Positions 5,835-14,215 of a DNA stretch of 64,000 nucleotides are shown one piece after another. A model generated the notes under the pieces. It made no database searches. It was not told the origin of the DNA and saw only the letters and a program-made list of their open reading frames with translations. Both the position numbers and the translations under genes were made by a program. The stretch spans positions 2,293 through 66,292 of the forward strand of contig JAUYPW010000013.1 in assembly GCA_030697525.1 (NCBI GenBank). The letters run 5' to 3'. This DNA comes from a bacterium (GTDB lineage: Bacteria > Patescibacteriota > Minisyncoccia > Sungbacterales > HO2-52-23). Within the stretch, counting starts at the first letter, position 1. Each line of letters starts with the position of its first letter.

Positions 5835-6824
5835 ATGAAACGAATACTCACGTTTCTTATAACCGCCTTTTTACCCCTTACAGCTATGGCGGCAAATGAG
5901 GTAAGCTTAACTTCCAATGTAACTCTGGTACTGCCTTCAGATAGTTCGGAATACACTCTTTTAAATGGGAGCACGTTTGATTCTTTAATAGTCAATAATA
6001 CCAATTTCACTTTTGGAATGTCGGCTGGATCCAGCGTTGAGATAACGTCAGCCGATAAGAAGAAGCTTACTAACTCCTTATTAGCAACTATTCAATGTGA
6101 AAGTACTCAATCGAGAATATTTATGTCTAAGCCCTCGGGTGCTACGACTGAAGATATAACCGTTACCCCTTCTGGTACCTGTTCTTCGACCGGTGGAAGT
6201 GGCGGTGGTGGAGCTTCAAGCGGAGGTAGCAGTGGTAGTAGTGGAGGTGGGAGTAGTAGTGGCGGTAGTAGTGCGCCCGCGCCTTTGCCGGCCACGGAAA
6301 CAGTGGATAAGGTTGCCCAATTAAAAGCCCAAATAGCGAGCGTCCAGGCCGCTATAGCCCAAAAGCTTGCCCAAAAAGGAGTTCAAACAAAATATGTAGC
6401 GCCAGCCTTTGGTGTATTTGCCCGGAGTTTAGCTCCCGGGCAGAGGGATGATGAAATAAAAAGATTGCAAGAACTTCTGGCTACGGATAAAAGTATCTAT
6501 CCCGAAGGTAAGGTTACTGGATATTATGGGCCAGCCACACTCAATGCAGTTAAAAGATTTCAGAAGAAATATGGTATTTCTCAAGTTGGGAAAGTTGGAC
6601 CGCAGACCATTTCTAAACTAAACGAAGTTTTTGGGGGAACTATTCCAGTTGTTGTTCCCGAAACAAAACCAGCAACACAAGCTTCCGTTATTTCATCTCC
6701 AGCTTCCGCGGCGGTGAGCACTCAAGTCCAACAAATCCAAGAACAAATTAAAGCAATCCAGGCCAAACTGATTCAGGAGCAAATTAAACAAATTCAAGAA
6801 AAAATTAAATCCCTACAAAAATAA
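5835..6824 (+). CDS. secreted protein: signal peptide, N-terminal domain, Gly/Ser-rich linker, coiled coil, PG_binding_1 domain, C-terminal QEQIK coiled-coil motif
   Basis: The signal peptide is MKRILTFLITAFLPLTAMAA. A (GGS)n low-complexity linker lies at nt ~6175-6290. The PG-binding motif is DDEIKRLQELLA...VTGYYGPATLNAVKRFQKKYGI. The protein ends QQIQEQIKAIQAKLIQEQIKQIQEKIKSLQK*. Confidence 0.75.
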   Translation: MKRILTFLITAFLPLTAMAANEVSLTSNVTLVLPSDSSEYTLLNGSTFDSLIVNNTNFTFGMSAGSSVEITSADKKKLTNSLLATIQCESTQSRIFMSKPSGATTEDITVTPSGTCSSTGGSGGGGASSGGSSGSSGGGSSSGGSSAPAPLPATETVDKVAQLKAQIASVQAAIAQKLAQKGVQTKYVAPAFGVFARSLAPGQRDDEIKRLQELLATDKSIYPEGKVTGYYGPATLNAVKRFQKKYGISQVGKVGPQTISKLNEVFGGTIPVVVPETKPATQASVISSPASAAVSTQVQQIQEQIKAIQAKLIQEQIKQIQEKIKSLQK

Positions 6825-9477: not shown

Positions 9478-10875
9478 ATGTCATATTATCGATTCTTGTT
9501 GCTGTTACCATTCCTCCTGCTTCCGGCAGGAGGAATTTTTGCGTCTGGCAACATACAGTTCAGTGAGGTTGTGTGGATGGGTATGTTGCCACGCGAGGGC
9601 GAATCAAGCCAGGCCGCGTCTAATAATGAATGGATAGAATTATATAATCCCACAGATCAGGAAATAAACTTGACCGGCTGGAAAATAACTTCGTCCGATG
9701 GATCACCAAATATCATTTTATCTGGCAGTATAAAGTCTCAAAGCTATTTTTTACTTGAAAGGGGAAATGACGATGTTTTGCCAAATTTCAAAGCTGATCA
9801 GATATACTCTTTTACAAACAATGCTCTTTCTAATTCTGGCGAGCACCTTTTCTTAAAAGATGCCGCTAGTAGCACGGTAGATGAAATAAATGCTTCATCC
9901 GGATGGCTGGCGGGTGATAACACCACTAAAGAGACTATGCAGAAATCCGGCAGTAATTGGGTGACGGCTCTAGCTACTCCAAAGTCGGGATGGGTTAACG
10001 CGATAACCAATTCTGAAAACAGCAGCACATCTCAAACCGCATCTACGCAATCTACTATCTCCCAGTCGTCTACTATCTACCCATCTATAAAAGCCTCCGC
10101 CGGAGAAGATAAAATAACAATTGCCGGATCGGAAGTTGATTTTGTTGGGCAGGCATGGAACTCAAACAAAGAACCCCTGGAAGATACCAGATTTTGGTGG
10201 AATTTTGGAGACGGAGAATCAAAAGAGGGGAAATCCATATCTCATATTTTCCAAATCCCAGGTAGATATACGGTTGGTTTGCATATCTCCAACGGTTCTT
10301 ATGCGGCTTCCGATTATGCTTATATAGAAGTAATAGCAAACAAGCTTAAGATTATAGACGTTTTACTAGGTGAGAAGGGTTATTTTAAACTGTATAACCC
10401 TTCTGATTTTCTCTTGGATATTGGCGGGTGGTTGGTGGAATCTGGGTCCGGAAAGCAGTTTGTAATTCCTACAAAAACCAAAATAGGACCAATGGCCGAA
10501 ATCGCTTTGGCCAATTCTCTTACCAAGATTTTTCTGGAAGAAAAAACGTTGGAAGCCAAAATGCGTTACCCCAATGGGCTTCTTGCTCTTGAATGGAAAA
10601 CAAATAATACGCCAGTTCAACATCCAGCCGGTACTATTATTCAAACTCCGGCGATCTATAATCAAACACCCAAAATTTCTAAAATTATCAGAGACGAATC
10701 TCTTCCCGAAGCTTATTTAACCCGAGTTGTATCAACTACTTCTGAAATTGCAGAGATAAATAAAACTACACCAGGAAAACTAAAGATATCTCCGTTTTGG
10801 TTGGCCGGAATTTTAAGTTTAATAACAGCTGTCGGATATATATTAGTAAGCAAATGGAAAAACCAAAAGTTATAA
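9478..10875 (+). CDS. surface protein with two lamin-tail (LTD) domains flanking a PKD-like domain; C-terminal TM anchor
   Basis: LTD signatures are SEVVWMG...NEWIELYNPTDQEINLTGWKITSSDG...YFLLERG and KGYFKLYNPSDFLLDIGGWLVESG. The PKD-like segment is FWWNFGDGESKEGKSISHIFQIPGRYTVGLHISNG. The C-terminal TM is ISPFWLAGILSLITAVGYILV. Confidence 0.7.
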   Translation: MSYYRFLLLLPFLLLPAGGIFASGNIQFSEVVWMGMLPREGESSQAASNNEWIELYNPTDQEINLTGWKITSSDGSPNIILSGSIKSQSYFLLERGNDDVLPNFKADQIYSFTNNALSNSGEHLFLKDAASSTVDEINASSGWLAGDNTTKETMQKSGSNWVTALATPKSGWVNAITNSENSSTSQTASTQSTISQSSTIYPSIKASAGEDKITIAGSEVDFVGQAWNSNKEPLEDTRFWWNFGDGESKEGKSISHIFQIPGRYTVGLHISNGSYAASDYAYIEVIANKLKIIDVLLGEKGYFKLYNPSDFLLDIGGWLVESGSGKQFVIPTKTKIGPMAEIALANSLTKIFLEEKTLEAKMRYPNGLLALEWKTNNTPVQHPAGTIIQTPAIYNQTPKISKIIRDESLPEAYLTRVVSTTSEIAEINKTTPGKLKISPFWLAGILSLITAVGYILVSKWKNQKL

Positions 10876-13100
10876 TATTTACCACGGCTTATTTTCCGTT
10901 TATTGGCGGAGCGGAAATAGCAATACAGGAGATTACAAAGCGGCTGAAGGACCGCTTTGATTTTTATATTATTACATCCCGCTTACGCCGTGATTTACCC
11001 CCAAAAGAAGTCAGACCAGAAGGTACTATCGTCAGAATTGGTTTTGGAACCAGATTTGATAAATGGTTACTTCCTTTTGCCCCTCTTTATTATAAAAATT
11101 CAGCCTCGATTATGTTGGGCGTGGATATATCTCAGGGGTCTCTGGCCGCCGCTTTTTATAAGTTGTTACATCCTAAATGTAAGTTTGTTTTTAATATTCA
11201 ATACGGATATGGAGAAGAAAGGCTAAGGAAAGGAAGGTTGGGCATGTTGGCTTTGGCTTTTCGTATTATTTTGAGGCAAGCAGACTGTGTCACTGCTATA
11301 TCCAAGCACCTGTCAGATGTTGCAAGAGAGTATAATTATAAAAGATCAATGGAAGTCATACCGAATGGGGTGGATTTTAACAGATTCCAAAACCCAAATT
11401 ACAAATTACAAATAAATTCCAATCCGCCAACTGGCGGACCGAATCCCAAAATAATTATAACCACCTCACGATTAGTACAAAAAAATGGAATTGATATCTT
11501 AATTAAAGCCATCGCTGAAATAAAAAAAGAAATTTCTGATGTCCAATGCTGGATTATTGGAGATGGGCCAGAGCGCAAGGCGCTCGAGCTACAAGCTACA
11601 AGCTACAAGCTACAAGCTAATATAAAATTCTTCGGAGAAATCCCGCATGAAAAGATCCCCGAACATCTTCACCAAGCCGATATATTTGTTCGTCCATCAA
11701 GGTCAGAGGGTATGGGTAATTCTTTTGTAGAGGCCCTATCCGCGGGACTTCCGATCATAGGCACTCCAGTAGGAGGTATCACGGATATTATTAAGGACAC
11801 GAAAACAGGTCTTTTTGCCCGCGCGGGCGACTCCAGTGATCTGGCTCAAAAAATAAAACTATTGTTGGCCAATGAAGAACTTAGGCAGACTATTGTTAAA
11901 AATGGGTATCAACTGATCAAAGAACATTTTGCTTGGGAGAAAATTTCTGGAGGATATGGAATAATTTTTGATGAACTGCAAACAAAAGAAAAACTGTGCT
12001 TGGTCATAGCTACTGGTTTGTTTCCTCCGGACATTGGCGGTCCGGCTACCTACAGCAAAACGCTTTCCGAAGAACTTCCCAAACGCGGATTTGATGTGAA
12101 GGTGGTTAGTTTTGGCTTGGTGCGACATCTCCCTAAATTCATCAGGCATTTGGCCTATTTTTTAAAAATCTGCAGAGCGGCATGGAAAAGTGATATAATT
12201 TTTGCCCAAGATCCTGTAAGTGTGGGTCTGCCGGCCATGCTAGCTGCTAAAATTTTGCGAAAGAAATTTATATTAAAAATAGTGGGGGATTATGCGTGGG
12301 AACAACATCAGACAACAAATACAAAAGTTATGTCTTTGGAGGAATTTCAAGAAAAGAAACTTGATTTTATCACTGAACTTCGGCGTTGGATAGAATTTTT
12401 AGTAGCCCGTCAGGCCAAGATTATTATAACTCCGAGCAATTATCTGAAAAAAATTGTATCTGGATGGGGTATTAAAGAAAACATCATAAAAGTTATTTAT
12501 AATTCATTTGATATTCCTCAAGTGGTTGAATCCAGAGAGGAGGCGAGAAAGAAATTAAATTTATCCGGTTTTGTAATAATTTCTGCCGGAAGATTGGTAC
12601 CCTGGAAAGGATTTGAAACAGTTATGGACGTTATACCGGAGGTACTCAGAGAAATACCGCAATTAAAACTCATTATTGTAGGATCCGGGCCAGACGAGAA
12701 AAAGTTAGAAGAAAGGATAAAAGAGCTAAAGCTAGAAAAGATAATTACCATGGTCGGCAGGATTAGTCACGATCAACTACTTACCTATCTTAGGGGAGGT
12801 GATGTATTTCTACTAAATACGGCCTATGAAGGTTTTTCGCACACTATACTGGAAGCTATGGCTGTAGAAATACCGGTAATTACTACGCGAGTCGGGGGTA
12901 ATCCAGAAGTTATTACTGACGGGTTATCTGGCTTGCTAATAGAGTATAATGAAAAAGAGGGAATGAGGACTGCCATATTGAGAATATACAATAATCCCGA
13001 ACTGCGTCTCCGTGTAAGCCAACATGCCTTACTTAAGGCAAGGGAATTTAATCAAGATAGAATGTTGAGCCAAGTAGCATCTGTTTTACAGCAGCTATGA
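10854..13100 (+). CDS. bifunctional glycosyltransferase, two tandem GT4 (GT-B) modules in one polypeptide
   Basis: I chose the ATG at 10854 (MEKPKVIIFTTAYFPFIGGAE) over the upstream in-frame ATG at 10797, which overlaps the previous gene by 79 nt. Module 1 has the EX7E region SRSEGMGNSFVEALSAGLPIIGTPVGG. Module 2 starts ~aa 400 (KLCLVIATGLFPPDIGGPATY) and has its own EX7E region YEGFSHTILEAMAVEIPVITTRVGG. Confidence 0.8.
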   Translation: MEKPKVIIFTTAYFPFIGGAEIAIQEITKRLKDRFDFYIITSRLRRDLPPKEVRPEGTIVRIGFGTRFDKWLLPFAPLYYKNSASIMLGVDISQGSLAAAFYKLLHPKCKFVFNIQYGYGEERLRKGRLGMLALAFRIILRQADCVTAISKHLSDVAREYNYKRSMEVIPNGVDFNRFQNPNYKLQINSNPPTGGPNPKIIITTSRLVQKNGIDILIKAIAEIKKEISDVQCWIIGDGPERKALELQATSYKLQANIKFFGEIPHEKIPEHLHQADIFVRPSRSEGMGNSFVEALSAGLPIIGTPVGGITDIIKDTKTGLFARAGDSSDLAQKIKLLLANEELRQTIVKNGYQLIKEHFAWEKISGGYGIIFDELQTKEKLCLVIATGLFPPDIGGPATYSKTLSEELPKRGFDVKVVSFGLVRHLPKFIRHLAYFLKICRAAWKSDIIFAQDPVSVGLPAMLAAKILRKKFILKIVGDYAWEQHQTTNTKVMSLEEFQEKKLDFITELRRWIEFLVARQAKIIITPSNYLKKIVSGWGIKENIIKVIYNSFDIPQVVESREEARKKLNLSGFVIISAGRLVPWKGFETVMDVIPEVLREIPQLKLIIVGSGPDEKKLEERIKELKLEKIITMVGRISHDQLLTYLRGGDVFLLNTAYEGFSHTILEAMAVEIPVITTRVGGNPEVITDGLSGLLIEYNEKEGMRTAILRIYNNPELRLRVSQHALLKAREFNQDRMLSQVASVLQQL
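11587..11621 (+). repeat. heptanucleotide tandem repeat (AGCTACA)x4 plus a degenerate fifth unit, inside the coding sequence of GT4 module 1
   Basis: The sequence reads cgctcg|agctaca|agctaca|agctaca|agctaca|agctaat. It translates in frame to ELQATSYKLQAN. Confidence 0.85.
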
Positions 13101-14215
13101 GAGTATTAATGATTAGCGAAGATTCGAATATTGCTTTCCAGGATTCTGAAGCGAGGGTGAGAATGAACGAGTATGCAGGGCTCTTTGAGGAGCTTCATAT
13201 TGTCGTGCCTTTTTCCAAGAAAATAAATGACGAGCAGATGGGCAATCTTTTTATTTATTATGCTCAGTCTTCGCATAAAATCTGGCAAAAACTAAAATTA
13301 TTTTTTAAGAGCAAAGATATCGCTAAAAAAATAAAGCCCGATGTTTTAACCGTGCAGAATCCAGCCGAACTAGGGGTCATGGGTTTACTACTCGCCAGAG
13401 TCTACAATATTCCTCTAGTGGTGCAGGTTCACACAGATGTATTCAGTCCTTGGTATCGCCACTCCTTCTTCACAGACCGTATTAGATATTGGTTAGCGCT
13501 TTTGATTATACCGCGCGCTAGTCGGACACGAGTTGTTTCGGATAGAATCAAAAAATCTATCGTTACTCGTGGACTTCTGCCTGCCGAGAAAATCACGGTT
13601 TTACCAATTTATACTGATATCTCCAAGTTTCTCAACACTATCAGTGATATACAAACAGAAGAACTATTTGGGCAACATTCTTTAAAAATGATTGCTGTTG
13701 GCCGTTTTGTGGACAAAGAAAAAAATTTCAGCATGCTGATTGAGGTAATGAAGGAATTGATAAAAACAAATCCGGAGGCAGTTTTAGTTATAGTAGGAGA
13801 TGGGCTGGATAAAGATAGTTACAAGCGACAAGTGACAAGATACAAGTTGGAGAAGAATGTAATTTTAGAACCATGGAGAAATGACCTGCCAAGTTTCTTA
13901 AAATCTTTTGATCTTTTTGTAATGCCTTCCAATTACGAAGGGTGGGGAAGGGTAGTAATAGAAGCTATGGCTTCTGGTCTGCCTATATTAATGACTGACG
14001 TGGGGGTTGCCGGAGAAATTGTGGGCCACGATCGAGAAGGTATAGTGGTTCCCGTCCAAGACAAAAAGGCCCTGTTAAGAGCGATAAAGGACTTGTATAA
14101 TAATAGAGGCAAACTGGAAAGAATGGGTGAGGCAGCTAAAAATAAAGTTATAGGACTAAACCCAAAGACCAAAAAGGAGTATTTAGAATTGTACAAAAAA
14201 AGTTTAGATATATGA
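13097..14215 (+). CDS. GT4 family glycosyltransferase
   Basis: The ATGA overlaps the upstream stop. The GT4 C-terminal motif is PSNYEGWGRVVIEAMASGLPILMTDVGVAGEIV. Confidence 0.8.
   Translation: MRVLMISEDSNIAFQDSEARVRMNEYAGLFEELHIVVPFSKKINDEQMGNLFIYYAQSSHKIWQKLKLFFKSKDIAKKIKPDVLTVQNPAELGVMGLLLARVYNIPLVVQVHTDVFSPWYRHSFFTDRIRYWLALLIIPRASRTRVVSDRIKKSIVTRGLLPAEKITVLPIYTDISKFLNTISDIQTEELFGQHSLKMIAVGRFVDKEKNFSMLIEVMKELIKTNPEAVLVIVGDGLDKDSYKRQVTRYKLEKNVILEPWRNDLPSFLKSFDLFVMPSNYEGWGRVVIEAMASGLPILMTDVGVAGEIVGHDREGIVVPVQDKKALLRAIKDLYNNRGKLERMGEAAKNKVIGLNPKTKKEYLELYKKSLDI

What the first reader, a model, noticed from the sequence alone, without database searches (positions are those of the whole stretch)
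11587..11621. Heptanucleotide tandem repeat (AGCTACA)x4-5 inside a tandem-GT4 glycosyltransferase gene: candidate slipped-strand phase-variation switch
Four perfect copies plus one degenerate copy of a 7-nt unit lie in frame within GT4 module 1 (translated ELQATSYKLQAN). The unit length is not a multiple of 3, so gain or loss of one unit frameshifts the 767-aa bifunctional glycosyltransferase and truncates it before the EX7E motif of module 1. Four exact tandem heptamers are essentially impossible by chance (about 4^-21). This is the classic architecture of phase-variable surface-glycan genes (tetra-, penta- and heptanucleotide repeats in LOS/capsule genes of host-associated bacteria). It is unexpected in a CPR-like genome.
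Basis: seen in the sequence. Interest (0 to 1): 0.7.

Follow-up and report, generated by a model that had tools for sequence, protein, structure and literature searches.

The report
Heptamer microsatellite in a glycosyltransferase gene
A perfect 7-base repeat sits in frame inside a sugar-transferase gene of an ultra-small (CPR/Patescibacteria) bacterium; it is real, kept perfect by ongoing repeat turnover, and could switch the gene off by slipping, but the same kind of repeat occurs in many related genes, including essential ones, always in frame, so a dedicated on/off switch is possible but unproven.

Summary
Window 11587-11619 is (AGCTACA)x4.7, 100% perfect. It lies in frame in module 1 of a two-module GT4 glycosyltransferase, and gain or loss of 1-2 units gives a stop within two codons.

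It is not an oddity. In 81 Patescibacteria loci (836 kb), perfect period-7 arrays far outnumber every other period. With a threshold of at least 10 lag matches, 42 lie in GT4 genes, 1 in other coding DNA and 2 in non-coding DNA. They recur at the same few sites of the GT4 fold with different units, have 2.4-5.3 copies, and are never frameshifted.

The orthologous array is 33/33 identical in a genome whose synonymous sites are saturated. In a third genome it carries the same A->G change in every unit, which is concerted evolution. In a fourth it is exactly three units shorter.

Arrays with the same unit also sit in frame in unrelated housekeeping genes of metagenome contigs: LeuRS (shown to be patescibacterial), TrmD, MurB, Pth and Fmt.

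Best reading: this is an evolutionarily active coding heptamer microsatellite, tolerated because three units encode one 7-residue helical heptad. Its length is fixed by selection on the reading frame and on helix length. Phase variation is mechanically possible but not shown.

The parts
11587..11619 (+). Perfect heptanucleotide array (AGCTACA)x4.7. It encodes residues 245-255 (ELQATSYKLQA) of the 748-aa protein.
   Evidence: The AF2 model places it in the C-terminal half of helix 241-250 plus the loop before strand 257-261, with pLDDT 94-95.
11618..11625 (+). Two out-of-frame TAA codons (11618-11620 and 11623-11625) at and just 3' of the array end. They stop translation in both shifted frames.
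   Evidence: Sequence. Simulated +/-1 and +/-2 unit alleles end at residues 250-261.
10854..13100 (+). Two-module GT4 glycosyltransferase gene (748 aa from ATG 10854; the longest ORF starts at TTG 10797).
   Evidence: Pfam Glycos_transf_1 and Glyco_transf_4, each matched twice. Identical to P0001. Fold matches BshA, MshA, PimA and PglA. EX7E is invariant.
11395..11413 (+). Second, short heptamer array (CAAATTA)x2.7 in the same gene. It encodes (P)NYKLQI in the interdomain linker after NGVD ('site B').
   Evidence: The same site carries heptamer arrays with other units in L001, L004, L010, L020, L022 and L025. It lies in the low-confidence linker 185-195 of the model.
13817..13847 (+). Decayed heptamer array AGTTACA AGCGACA AGTGACA AGATACA AGTTG at the homologous GDG-helix site of the next GT4 gene. 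It encodes SYKRQVTRYKL.
   Evidence: Orthologues of this gene carry perfect arrays at this site: L008 (AATTACA)x4.9, L002 (ATTATCA)x4.6 and L021 (AGCTACA)x5.3.
13097..14215 (+). Downstream single-module GT4 gene (372 aa) that holds the decayed array.
   Evidence: Pfam.

Best explanation
The feature is an evolutionarily active coding microsatellite. It is not a one-off duplication and is probably not a purpose-built switch.

A 7-nt unit has overwritten, with no net change in length, the second half of the first alpha-helix of the C-terminal Rossmann domain of GT4 module 1. Because 3 x 7 nt = 21 nt = 7 codons, the array is read in all three unit phases. It therefore encodes a 7-residue periodic peptide (SYKLQAT) that fits an amphipathic surface helix, so the protein tolerates it.

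Repeated unit turnover keeps the array perfect and homogenises the units. This turnover could be slipped-strand gain and loss, or length-neutral intra-array conversion. Selection for the reading frame and for helix length fixes the total at 4.7 units.

Gain or loss of one or two units puts a TAA in frame within two codons. That gives a 250-261-aa product lacking EX7E and all of module 2. The array is thus a reversible ON->OFF mutational hot spot.

The array is one member of a large class of short (about 2.5-5 unit) in-frame heptamer arrays. In this lineage they are concentrated in GT4 genes. Arrays of the same kind also occur in housekeeping genes of metagenome contigs, at least one of which (the L238 LeuRS contig) is patescibacterial.

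Shown: the array and its position; the consequences of slips; its recurrence; GT4 enrichment; concerted evolution; a 3-unit contraction; the absence of out-of-frame alleles in consensus sequences.

Inferred: the turnover mechanism; the heptad-tolerance argument; and that any phase variation is a by-product rather than the reason the array exists.
For: Recurrence and period specificity:
- In 836 kb, perfect arrays with at least 14 lag matches number 21 for period 7 and 3 for period 14 (alternating heptamers). All other periods from 2 to 15 together give 5.
- At a threshold of at least 10 lag matches, 42 arrays lie in GT4 coding DNA (362 kb), 1 in other coding DNA (435 kb) and 2 in non-coding DNA.
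- Arrays recur at the same fold sites with different units: AGCTACA, AATTACA, ATTATCA, AATTTCA, AACTACA and others.

No net insertion: the GDG..FxG segment has the same length in 114 of 120 homologues.

Active turnover:
- Between the window and L021, the array is 33/33 identical. Third-position identity at conserved residues in the flanks is about 0.4, i.e. saturated, so 0.4^11 is about 4e-5.
- In P0006 all four units are AGCTGCA. P0015 is exactly 3 units shorter. P0003, P0052 and P0002 have decayed arrays of the same length.

Structure: the array sits in a helix plus loop modelled with high confidence.

Not switch-specific:
- Arrays of the same style occur in LeuRS (two per gene), TrmD (two), MurB (two), Pth, Fmt, KsgA, AspRS and others.
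- The LeuRS of L238 is patescibacterial by its homologues.
- AATTAC[CT] arrays persist at one LeuRS site in five diverged orthologues.
- 7-aa periodic peptides are common at two LeuRS sites.

No frameshifted array was found among 115 ORF-borne arrays.
Against: - The 42:1 concentration in GT4 genes, within genomes whose neighbouring genes lack arrays, is the classical signature of contingency loci. Tolerance alone does not fully explain it.
- Homogenisation by single-unit slippage would pass through OFF alleles. That is phase variation in practice.
- The mechanism that would make or maintain arrays in essential genes without lethal intermediates is unknown.
- MAG consensus sequences hide minority alleles, so the lack of OFF alleles is weak evidence against low-frequency switching.
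- Three independent k=31 assemblies of one species break inside such an array. Length heterogeneity could cause this.
- Apart from the L238 LeuRS contig, the taxonomy of the housekeeping-gene contigs was not established.
Confidence: 0.55

Rival explanations
1. Dedicated contingency locus. Second-order selection maintains the array because slipped-strand gain or loss of a unit reversibly switches the bifunctional GT4 ON and OFF. This would diversify the surface glycan of an episymbiotic CPR cell against hosts or phages, as in NeuO, pglE and the Haemophilus LOS genes.
For: - It is a non-triplet perfect repeat in a surface-glycan cluster.
- Both shifted frames reach an immediate stop.
- It has at least 3 units, the nomination threshold of PMC2651432.
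- Heptamer arrays are about 40-fold enriched in GT4 genes across 81 genomes, and only for the frameshifting period 7.
- The adjacent GT4 gene has its own array at the same site, like multi-gene phasotype modules.
- The perfect array is conserved across saturated divergence, and units evolve in concert.
- Assemblies break inside a sister array.
Against: - None of 45 arrays in 81 consensus genomes is out of frame. If 20% or more were OFF, the probability of this is below 1e-4.
- Copy number never exceeds 5.3 and is the same in orthologues, apart from one in-frame loss of 3 units. Proven heptanucleotide switches reach 8-93 units (NeuO ranges 2-93) and vary between strains.
- Arrays with the same units and the same length occur in essential genes.
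- Several arrays occur per gene (L050, L021), which is redundant for a switch.
- No population data are available.
Confidence: 0.3
2. The repeat is conserved for a direct sequence-level function of the DNA, the RNA or the peptide. Examples are phased AGCT or AATT palindromes as methylation or protein-binding sites, or a specifically selected SYKLQAT helix. Slippage would then be irrelevant.
For: - The array is 33/33 identical between the window and L021 despite saturated flanks.
- The same unit occurs at three sites in L021, one of them non-homologous.
- The same unit occurs in many unrelated genes.
- NYKLQITNYKLEKN is conserved in many orthologues of the downstream gene.
Against: - Units differ freely between genomes at the same site.
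- P0006 changed the unit in all copies, and three orthologues let the array decay with no change in length.
- The canonical GT4 helix at this site has no such motif.
- In a homogenised array every unit position is a non-synonymous position in one of the three phases. Ordinary protein-level constraint together with homogenisation therefore already explains why the unit is conserved.
Confidence: 0.08
3. Recent chance in-frame duplication, or an assembly artefact, with no history or dynamics.
For: Only one assembly of this species exists.
Against: - There is no net insertion relative to 114 of 120 homologues.
- An identical array is present in the independently assembled L021, with unit-variant, contracted and decayed forms in other orthologues from NCBI and Logan assemblies.
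- Many analogous arrays occur in independent studies.
Confidence: 0.02

Closest known systems
NeuO poly-psi VNTR (E. coli K1 prophage CUS-3 polysialate O-acetyltransferase; PMC3046976)
   Same: It is a heptanucleotide unit (AAGACTC) repeated inside the coding region of a surface-glycan-modifying enzyme. Every three units are translated as one 7-residue heptad (RLKTQDS). Unit counts that shift the frame truncate the protein.
   Different: NeuO's array starts 2 nt after the start codon and encodes a disordered N-terminal extension. Its copy number varies from 2 to 93, with a single-unit change the most frequent event, and enzyme activity rises with the number of heptads. Here the array is mid-gene in a structured Rossmann helix. 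It is fixed at 4.7 units with no net insertion, and no length polymorphism has been observed.
Neisseria pglE and Haemophilus influenzae heptanucleotide repeats (PMC7157529, PMC2651432)
   Same: Both involve frameshifting heptanucleotide repeats in or near surface-structure genes. pglE is a pilin-glycan glycosyltransferase whose phase variation is controlled by a heptanucleotide repeat. The candidate threshold of at least 3 units is met here.
   Different: Those loci show copy-number differences between strains and OFF alleles (for example AACAACC x13 versus x8, and AATTTTG x14 with a frameshift). Neither was found here. Those organisms are host-adapted pathogens with few such loci, not a phylum-wide pattern at fixed sites in a protein fold.
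Genome-wide heptamer repeats of bacteria: Calothrix tandem heptanucleotides, GGGNATC in Xanthomonas and Nostoc (PMC4692102), TAACTGA in Beggiatoaceae (PMC4679880)
   Same: Period-7 tandem repeats are over-represented among bacterial simple sequence repeats. There is a marked preference for about four units.
   Different: Those repeats are mainly intergenic and under-represented in coding DNA, and they are explained by G-quadruplex or regulatory roles. The arrays here are A/T-rich, lie on the sense strand in frame inside genes, and in this lineage are nearly confined to GT4 genes.
Ordinary coding microsatellite life cycle (birth, slippage-driven homogenisation, interruption and decay)
   Same: Orthologues show perfect, unit-substituted, contracted and decayed states of one array.
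   Different: The unit length is not a multiple of three, yet the array persists in frame at constant length across saturated divergence. Arrays also recur independently at the same structural sites.

Membership tests
Repeat-mediated phase-variable (contingency) locus | Perfect tandem repeat whose unit is not a multiple of 3, located in the ORF (or promoter), so that unit gain or loss shifts the frame | tested here: met
   (AGCTACA)x4.7 in frame. +/-1 or +/-2 units gives a stop within 2 codons.
Repeat-mediated phase-variable (contingency) locus | Repeat number above the level at which slippage is appreciable (nomination threshold of at least 3 units for heptanucleotides in PMC2651432) | tested here: met
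   4.7 units; threshold text. However, the proven heptanucleotide switches cited there and mostly have 8-93 units.
Repeat-mediated phase-variable (contingency) locus | Copy-number polymorphism between strains or within populations, including out-of-frame alleles | tested here: inconclusive
   No same-species sequence is available. Orthologues have the same length or exactly 3 units fewer. No array is out of frame among 45 arrays in 81 genomes or among 115 ORF-borne arrays. Assembly breaks inside a sister array are ambiguous. Read-level data cannot be reached with these tools.
Repeat-mediated phase-variable (contingency) locus | Reversible switching of a phenotype at high frequency | not testable with these tools
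   The organism is uncultured, and there are no reads and no experiments.
NeuO-type heptanucleotide coding VNTR | Heptanucleotide units translated three at a time into a 7-residue repeat | tested here: met
   AGC TAC AAG CTA CAA GCT ACA translates as SYKLQAT.
NeuO-type heptanucleotide coding VNTR | 5'-terminal location, with a freely variable copy number forming a dispensable extension | tested here: not met
   The array is at residues 245-255 of 748, inside a modelled helix. The segment length is constant in 114 of 120 homologues.
GT4 (GT-B fold) glycosyltransferase (host gene) | Pfam Glyco_transf_4 plus Glycos_transf_1 domains, the EX7E motif and a GT-B fold | tested here: met
   Pfam E-values of 2e-88 and 3e-28, each domain matched twice. 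E285 and E293 are invariant. Foldseek matches BshA, MshA, PimA and PglA at E of about 1e-19.
Genome-wide intergenic heptamer repeats (Calothrix-type and GGGNATC-type) | Dispersed over the genome, over-represented in non-coding DNA | tested here: not met
   In the window and in 80 related loci, 42 of 45 arrays are inside GT4 ORFs and only 2 are non-coding.

The most novel reading that the evidence does not exclude
Patescibacteria may carry a previously undescribed system of short heptanucleotide arrays. These would be written and kept perfect at a fixed set of tolerant helices and loops. In many lineages they are concentrated in GT4 surface-glycan genes. They would act as a phylum-wide set of contingency switches, fixed at a single ON length, that toggle individual glycosyltransferase modules. 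The underlying mechanism would be a lineage-specific, length-neutral process of repeat writing or homogenisation.
Probability: 0.25. Interest if true: 0.8.

Novelty: new variant of a known kind. Interest (0 to 1): 0.6.

Why it matters
CPR/Patescibacteria are uncultured episymbionts whose surface biology is almost unknown. I found no paper on repeat-mediated variation or heptamer repeats in them.

The comparison shows that frameshift-capable heptamer arrays are the dominant tandem repeat in their GT4 gene clusters. They recur at defined positions of the fold and are conserved perfectly across saturated divergence.

If they switch, CPR cells would have combinatorial glycan phase variation, and this is directly testable from existing read sets.

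If they do not switch, they reveal a mutational and structural rule: 7 nt x 3 = one helical heptad. That rule would let non-triplet microsatellites live inside essential proteins. This matters for annotation, for assembly breaks, and for models of how coding repeats evolve.

Tried and rejected
1. Same-species variants. An exact 24-nt flank scan of the metagenome contigs gave 0 hits. The protein cluster has a single member and the next homologue is 58% identical. P0001 is not in the contig index. No population test was therefore possible.

It was not used on the metagenomes.

3. An apparent split GT4 gene (P0123, 499 aa) looked like a frameshift at the helix. It is a scaffold N-gap artefact.

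4. Members of the 90% clusters of array-bearing orthologues showed no length variants of 7 aa.

5. A search with the gene-2 protein of the L008 species, for variant fragments around the array where assemblies break, found none.

6. A screen for frameshifted arrays gave 6 candidates. All are intergenic arrays or have stop-containing orientations.

7. 'Recent duplication fixed by chance' is rejected.

8. 'A genome-wide mutational quirk with no gene preference' is rejected for this lineage (42 arrays against 1). It holds better for the metagenome contigs with arrays in housekeeping genes.

9. A restart codon with a Shine-Dalgarno-like sequence between the array and module 2, which could rescue module 2 after a frameshift, was not found.
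Full report
**1. The observation**

Window 11587-11619 is AGCTACA repeated 4.7 times without a mismatch. It is the highest-scoring tandem repeat in the 64-kb window. A two-unit probe with up to 2 mismatches hits 5 times against 0.36 expected from shuffles.

The array lies in ORF 10797-13100. The probable start is ATG 10854, which gives the 748-aa protein deposited as a 'glycosyltransferase family 4 protein' of an uncultured bacterium (P0001).

Pfam finds two complete GT4 modules. An AlphaFold model (pLDDT 86) matches solved GT4 enzymes such as BshA, MshA, PimA and PglA.

The array encodes residues 245-255 (ELQATSYKLQA). These form the C-terminal half of the first helix after the GDG strand of the C-terminal Rossmann domain, plus the loop to the next strand (pLDDT 94-95).

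Adding or removing one or two units brings a TAA into frame within two codons. The products are 250-261 aa long, upstream of the EX7E motif at E285/E293. Changes of +/-3 units stay in frame.

The gene sits in a surface-glycan cluster: peptidoglycan-binding proteins, TPR, LTD/PKD, the tandem GT4, two more GT4-like genes, GtrA, asparagine synthase, two methyltransferases and another GT4. The order TPR - LTD/PKD - tandem GT4 - GT4 is conserved in relatives.

**2. It is not unique**

The next GT4 gene has a decayed heptamer array at the homologous place: 13817-13847, AGTTACA AGCGACA AGTGACA AGATACA AGTTG. The tandem gene also holds a short (CAAATTA)x2.7 array in its interdomain linker at 11395-11413.

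A protein alignment of 120 homologues (46-58% identical, all Patescibacteria where named) shows that the GDG..FxG segment has the same length in 114 of them. Many carry 7-residue-periodic peptides there, such as NYKLQITNYKL and SYKLKTKSYKL. One homologue (P0015) lacks exactly 7 residues.

I fetched 80 related loci from species-representative genomes and mapped the DNA of this segment. Perfect heptamer arrays occur at the same site, in module 1, module 2 or the downstream GT4 gene, in many genomes and with different units:
- (AGCTACA)x4.7 and x5.3 in L021
- (AATTACA)x4.3-4.9 in L003, L008 and L012
- (ATTATCA)x4.6 in L002
- (AATTTCA) in L006
- (AACTACA) in L007

**3. Period and gene specificity**

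In the 836 kb of these loci plus the window, perfect arrays with at least 14 lag matches number 21 for period 7 and 3 for period 14 (alternating heptamers). All other periods from 2 to 15 together give 5.

I labelled ORFs with a GT4 HMM. GT4 coding DNA is 362 kb and other coding DNA is 435 kb. With at least 10 lag matches, 42 period-7 arrays lie in GT4 genes, 1 in other genes and 2 in non-coding DNA.

The arrays recur at a handful of positions of the fold:
- the GDG helix
- the NGVD linker
- the VGDYAWEQ loop
- an N-domain helix of the downstream gene
- a few other positions

Copy number ranges from 2.4 to 5.3. Some genes carry three arrays (L050, L021). Every ORF-borne array is in frame in a long ORF.

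**4. Dynamics of this particular array**

The L021 orthologue is 47% identical overall. In conserved residues flanking the array, third codon positions agree only about 40% of the time, i.e. they are saturated. Yet all 11 array codons (33 of 33 nt) are identical.

DNA of five further orthologues shows the following:
- P0006: AGCTGCA in all four units, the same A->G change everywhere, which is concerted evolution.
- P0015: G AGCTACA AGCTA AC, exactly three units shorter.
- P0003, P0052 and P0002: decayed arrays of unchanged length.

The array is therefore old. Its units turn over, and its total length is held constant or changes by 21 nt. In a homogenised heptamer array every unit position is a first, a second and a third codon position in turn. 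No unit-level change is fully silent, which explains why the unit itself is conserved.

**5. The same arrays in housekeeping genes**

About 45 arrays lie in ORFs of at least 200 aa with 3.3-5.6 copies, and only 2 of those ORFs are GT4. The rest include:
- LeuRS (L238, two arrays; L222)
- TrmD (two arrays)
- MurB (two arrays)
- a class-V aminotransferase (two arrays)
- Pth, Fmt, KsgA, AspRS, an acyl transferase, an ATP-dependent ligase and FemAB

The best homologues of the L238 LeuRS are Patescibacteria (Falkow- and Kuenenbacteria). L222's LeuRS is about 50% identical to that set. The taxonomy of the other contigs was not established.

Among 120 LeuRS homologues, many carry heptad-periodic peptides at the same two sites. 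DNA of four of them shows AATTAC[CT] arrays at one site. L222 has this array perfect at x4.7, and L238 has AGCTACA x3.3 at the same site.

In Pth and Fmt the array replaces a helix with no change in length. In TrmD it is an insertion. I made these comparisons from remembered E. coli sequences, so they are weaker than tool results.

The long arrays (6-18 units) in that scan are in non-coding contexts of other organisms.

**6. Search for OFF alleles**

None was found.
- A 'split' gene was a scaffold-gap artefact.
- Cluster members show no 7-aa variants.
- A screen of 242 perfect heptamer arrays gave 115 in long ORFs and no genuine frameshift.
- Three independent k=31 assemblies of the L008 species end inside its (AATTACA)x4.9 array. 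A 34-nt array cannot by itself create a repeated 31-mer. The cause must be either other loci that share the array or length variants, and the data cannot separate these.
- A protein search for variant fragments found nothing.

**7. Interpretation**

By the usual bioinformatic criteria (PMC2651432), this is a candidate phase-variable repeat.

The comparative data point in two directions.

For a switch:
- the enrichment in GT4 genes is extreme
- only the frameshifting period 7 is enriched
- the arrays are kept perfect

Against a dedicated switch:
- no out-of-frame allele was found in any consensus sequence
- copy number is low and invariant
- several arrays occur per gene
- the same arrays occur in genes that cannot be switched off

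I therefore favour an evolutionarily active, tolerated microsatellite. Three heptamers make one helical heptad, which explains why period 7 survives inside helices. Its ON->OFF slippage would be a by-product (about 0.55). A selected contingency locus is the main rival (about 0.3).

The closest precedent is NeuO of E. coli K1, where (AAGACTC)n is translated into RLKTQDS heptads and only counts that are multiples of three are ON (PMC3046976). NeuO's array is 5'-terminal and ranges from 2 to 93 units.

I found no literature on heptamer repeats or repeat-mediated phase variation in CPR bacteria.

**8. Limits**

- No reads were available.
- Taxonomy was confirmed only for the L238 LeuRS contig.
- The 80 loci were chosen by similarity to the tandem GT4 gene, so their 'other coding' DNA is neighbourhood DNA, not a genome-wide sample.
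- The mechanism of length-neutral homogenisation is inferred, not shown.

Noticed in passing
window 13817-13847: A decayed heptamer array (AGTTACA AGCGACA AGTGACA AGATACA AGTTG) lies at the homologous GDG-helix site of the downstream GT4 gene. Orthologues of that gene often encode NYKLQITNYKLEKN there. Of 129 such segments, 20 show at least 4 of 7 identities between residues i and i+7, against 0 of 297 shuffled controls.
   Followed up: yes
window 11395-11413: A short (CAAATTA)x2.7 array lies in the interdomain linker of the same gene. Six other genomes carry heptamer arrays with different units at this same linker site.
   Followed up: yes
L021 4755-4787, 5700-5735, 7006-7042: One fused 1140-aa GT4 ORF carries three AGCTACA-type arrays, one of them at a non-homologous site. 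Two of them end in AGCTAAT, as the window array does. This suggests ectopic copying of arrays or a strongly preferred unit.
   Followed up: partly
L222 5121-5159 and 3204-3242: The LeuRS site-1 heptamer array (AATTTCC) is interrupted in frame by a GC-rich hairpin, CCTGCCCGTCCGGCAGGCGGG, which encodes SCPSGRR. An inverted copy of the array plus hairpin lies 1.9 kb upstream. It looks like a small palindromic mobile element associated with heptamer repeats.
   Followed up: no
LeuRS homologues P0143, P0153, P0158, P0181, P0186, P0202, P0251 (site before FTTRPDT); DNA in L324: Many patescibacterial LeuRS carry an in-frame insert, VVIASEAKQSH..GIAASPSAPRND, whose DNA is a long palindrome (GTCATTGCGAG...CTCGCAATGAC). 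The same loop also hosts whole inserted domains: a hydrolase, NUDIX and PD-(D/E)XK.
   Followed up: no
L218 4440-4464: A class-V aminotransferase gene holds (TCAAGAC)x3.6. This is the same unit as NeuO's AAGACTC and gives the same RLKTQDS-type peptide (IQDSRLKTQ).
   Followed up: no
L327, L328, L329 (contig ends) compared with L326 5586-5619: Three independent Logan (k=31) assemblies of one species end inside the (AATTACA)x4.9 array of the downstream GT4 gene. The SRC fragment P0130 likewise ends at the module-2 array of P0030.
   Followed up: partly
L321 2985-2994: A run of N in a scaffold creates a false split of the tandem GT4 gene (P0123). This is an annotation artefact, not a frameshift.
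   Followed up: yes
L051 446-475: An intergenic (CTAGCGC)x4.3 array has stop codons in every frame on both strands. It was the only array of at least 14 lag matches outside an ORF in the 81 loci.
   Followed up: no
L201-L320 (for example L212, L234, L241, L268, L305, L316): Contigs that carry AGCTACA arrays hold 68 further perfect heptamer arrays of other units, many sharing a CAAGC/GCTTG core. Long non-coding arrays of up to 18 units occur in organisms with 27-66% GC. Genomes rich in heptamer repeats therefore seem widespread.
   Followed up: partly
window 6232-6273: A period-15 repeat (GTGGTAGTAGTGGAG x2.8, 77% match) lies inside ORF 5835-6824, a protein with a peptidoglycan-binding domain.
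   Followed up: no
window 10797-10875: The longest ORF of the GT4 gene starts at TTG 10797 and overlaps the end of the LTD/PKD gene by 79 nt. ATG 10854 (MEKPKVIIF) matches the deposited protein and the homologues.
   Followed up: partly
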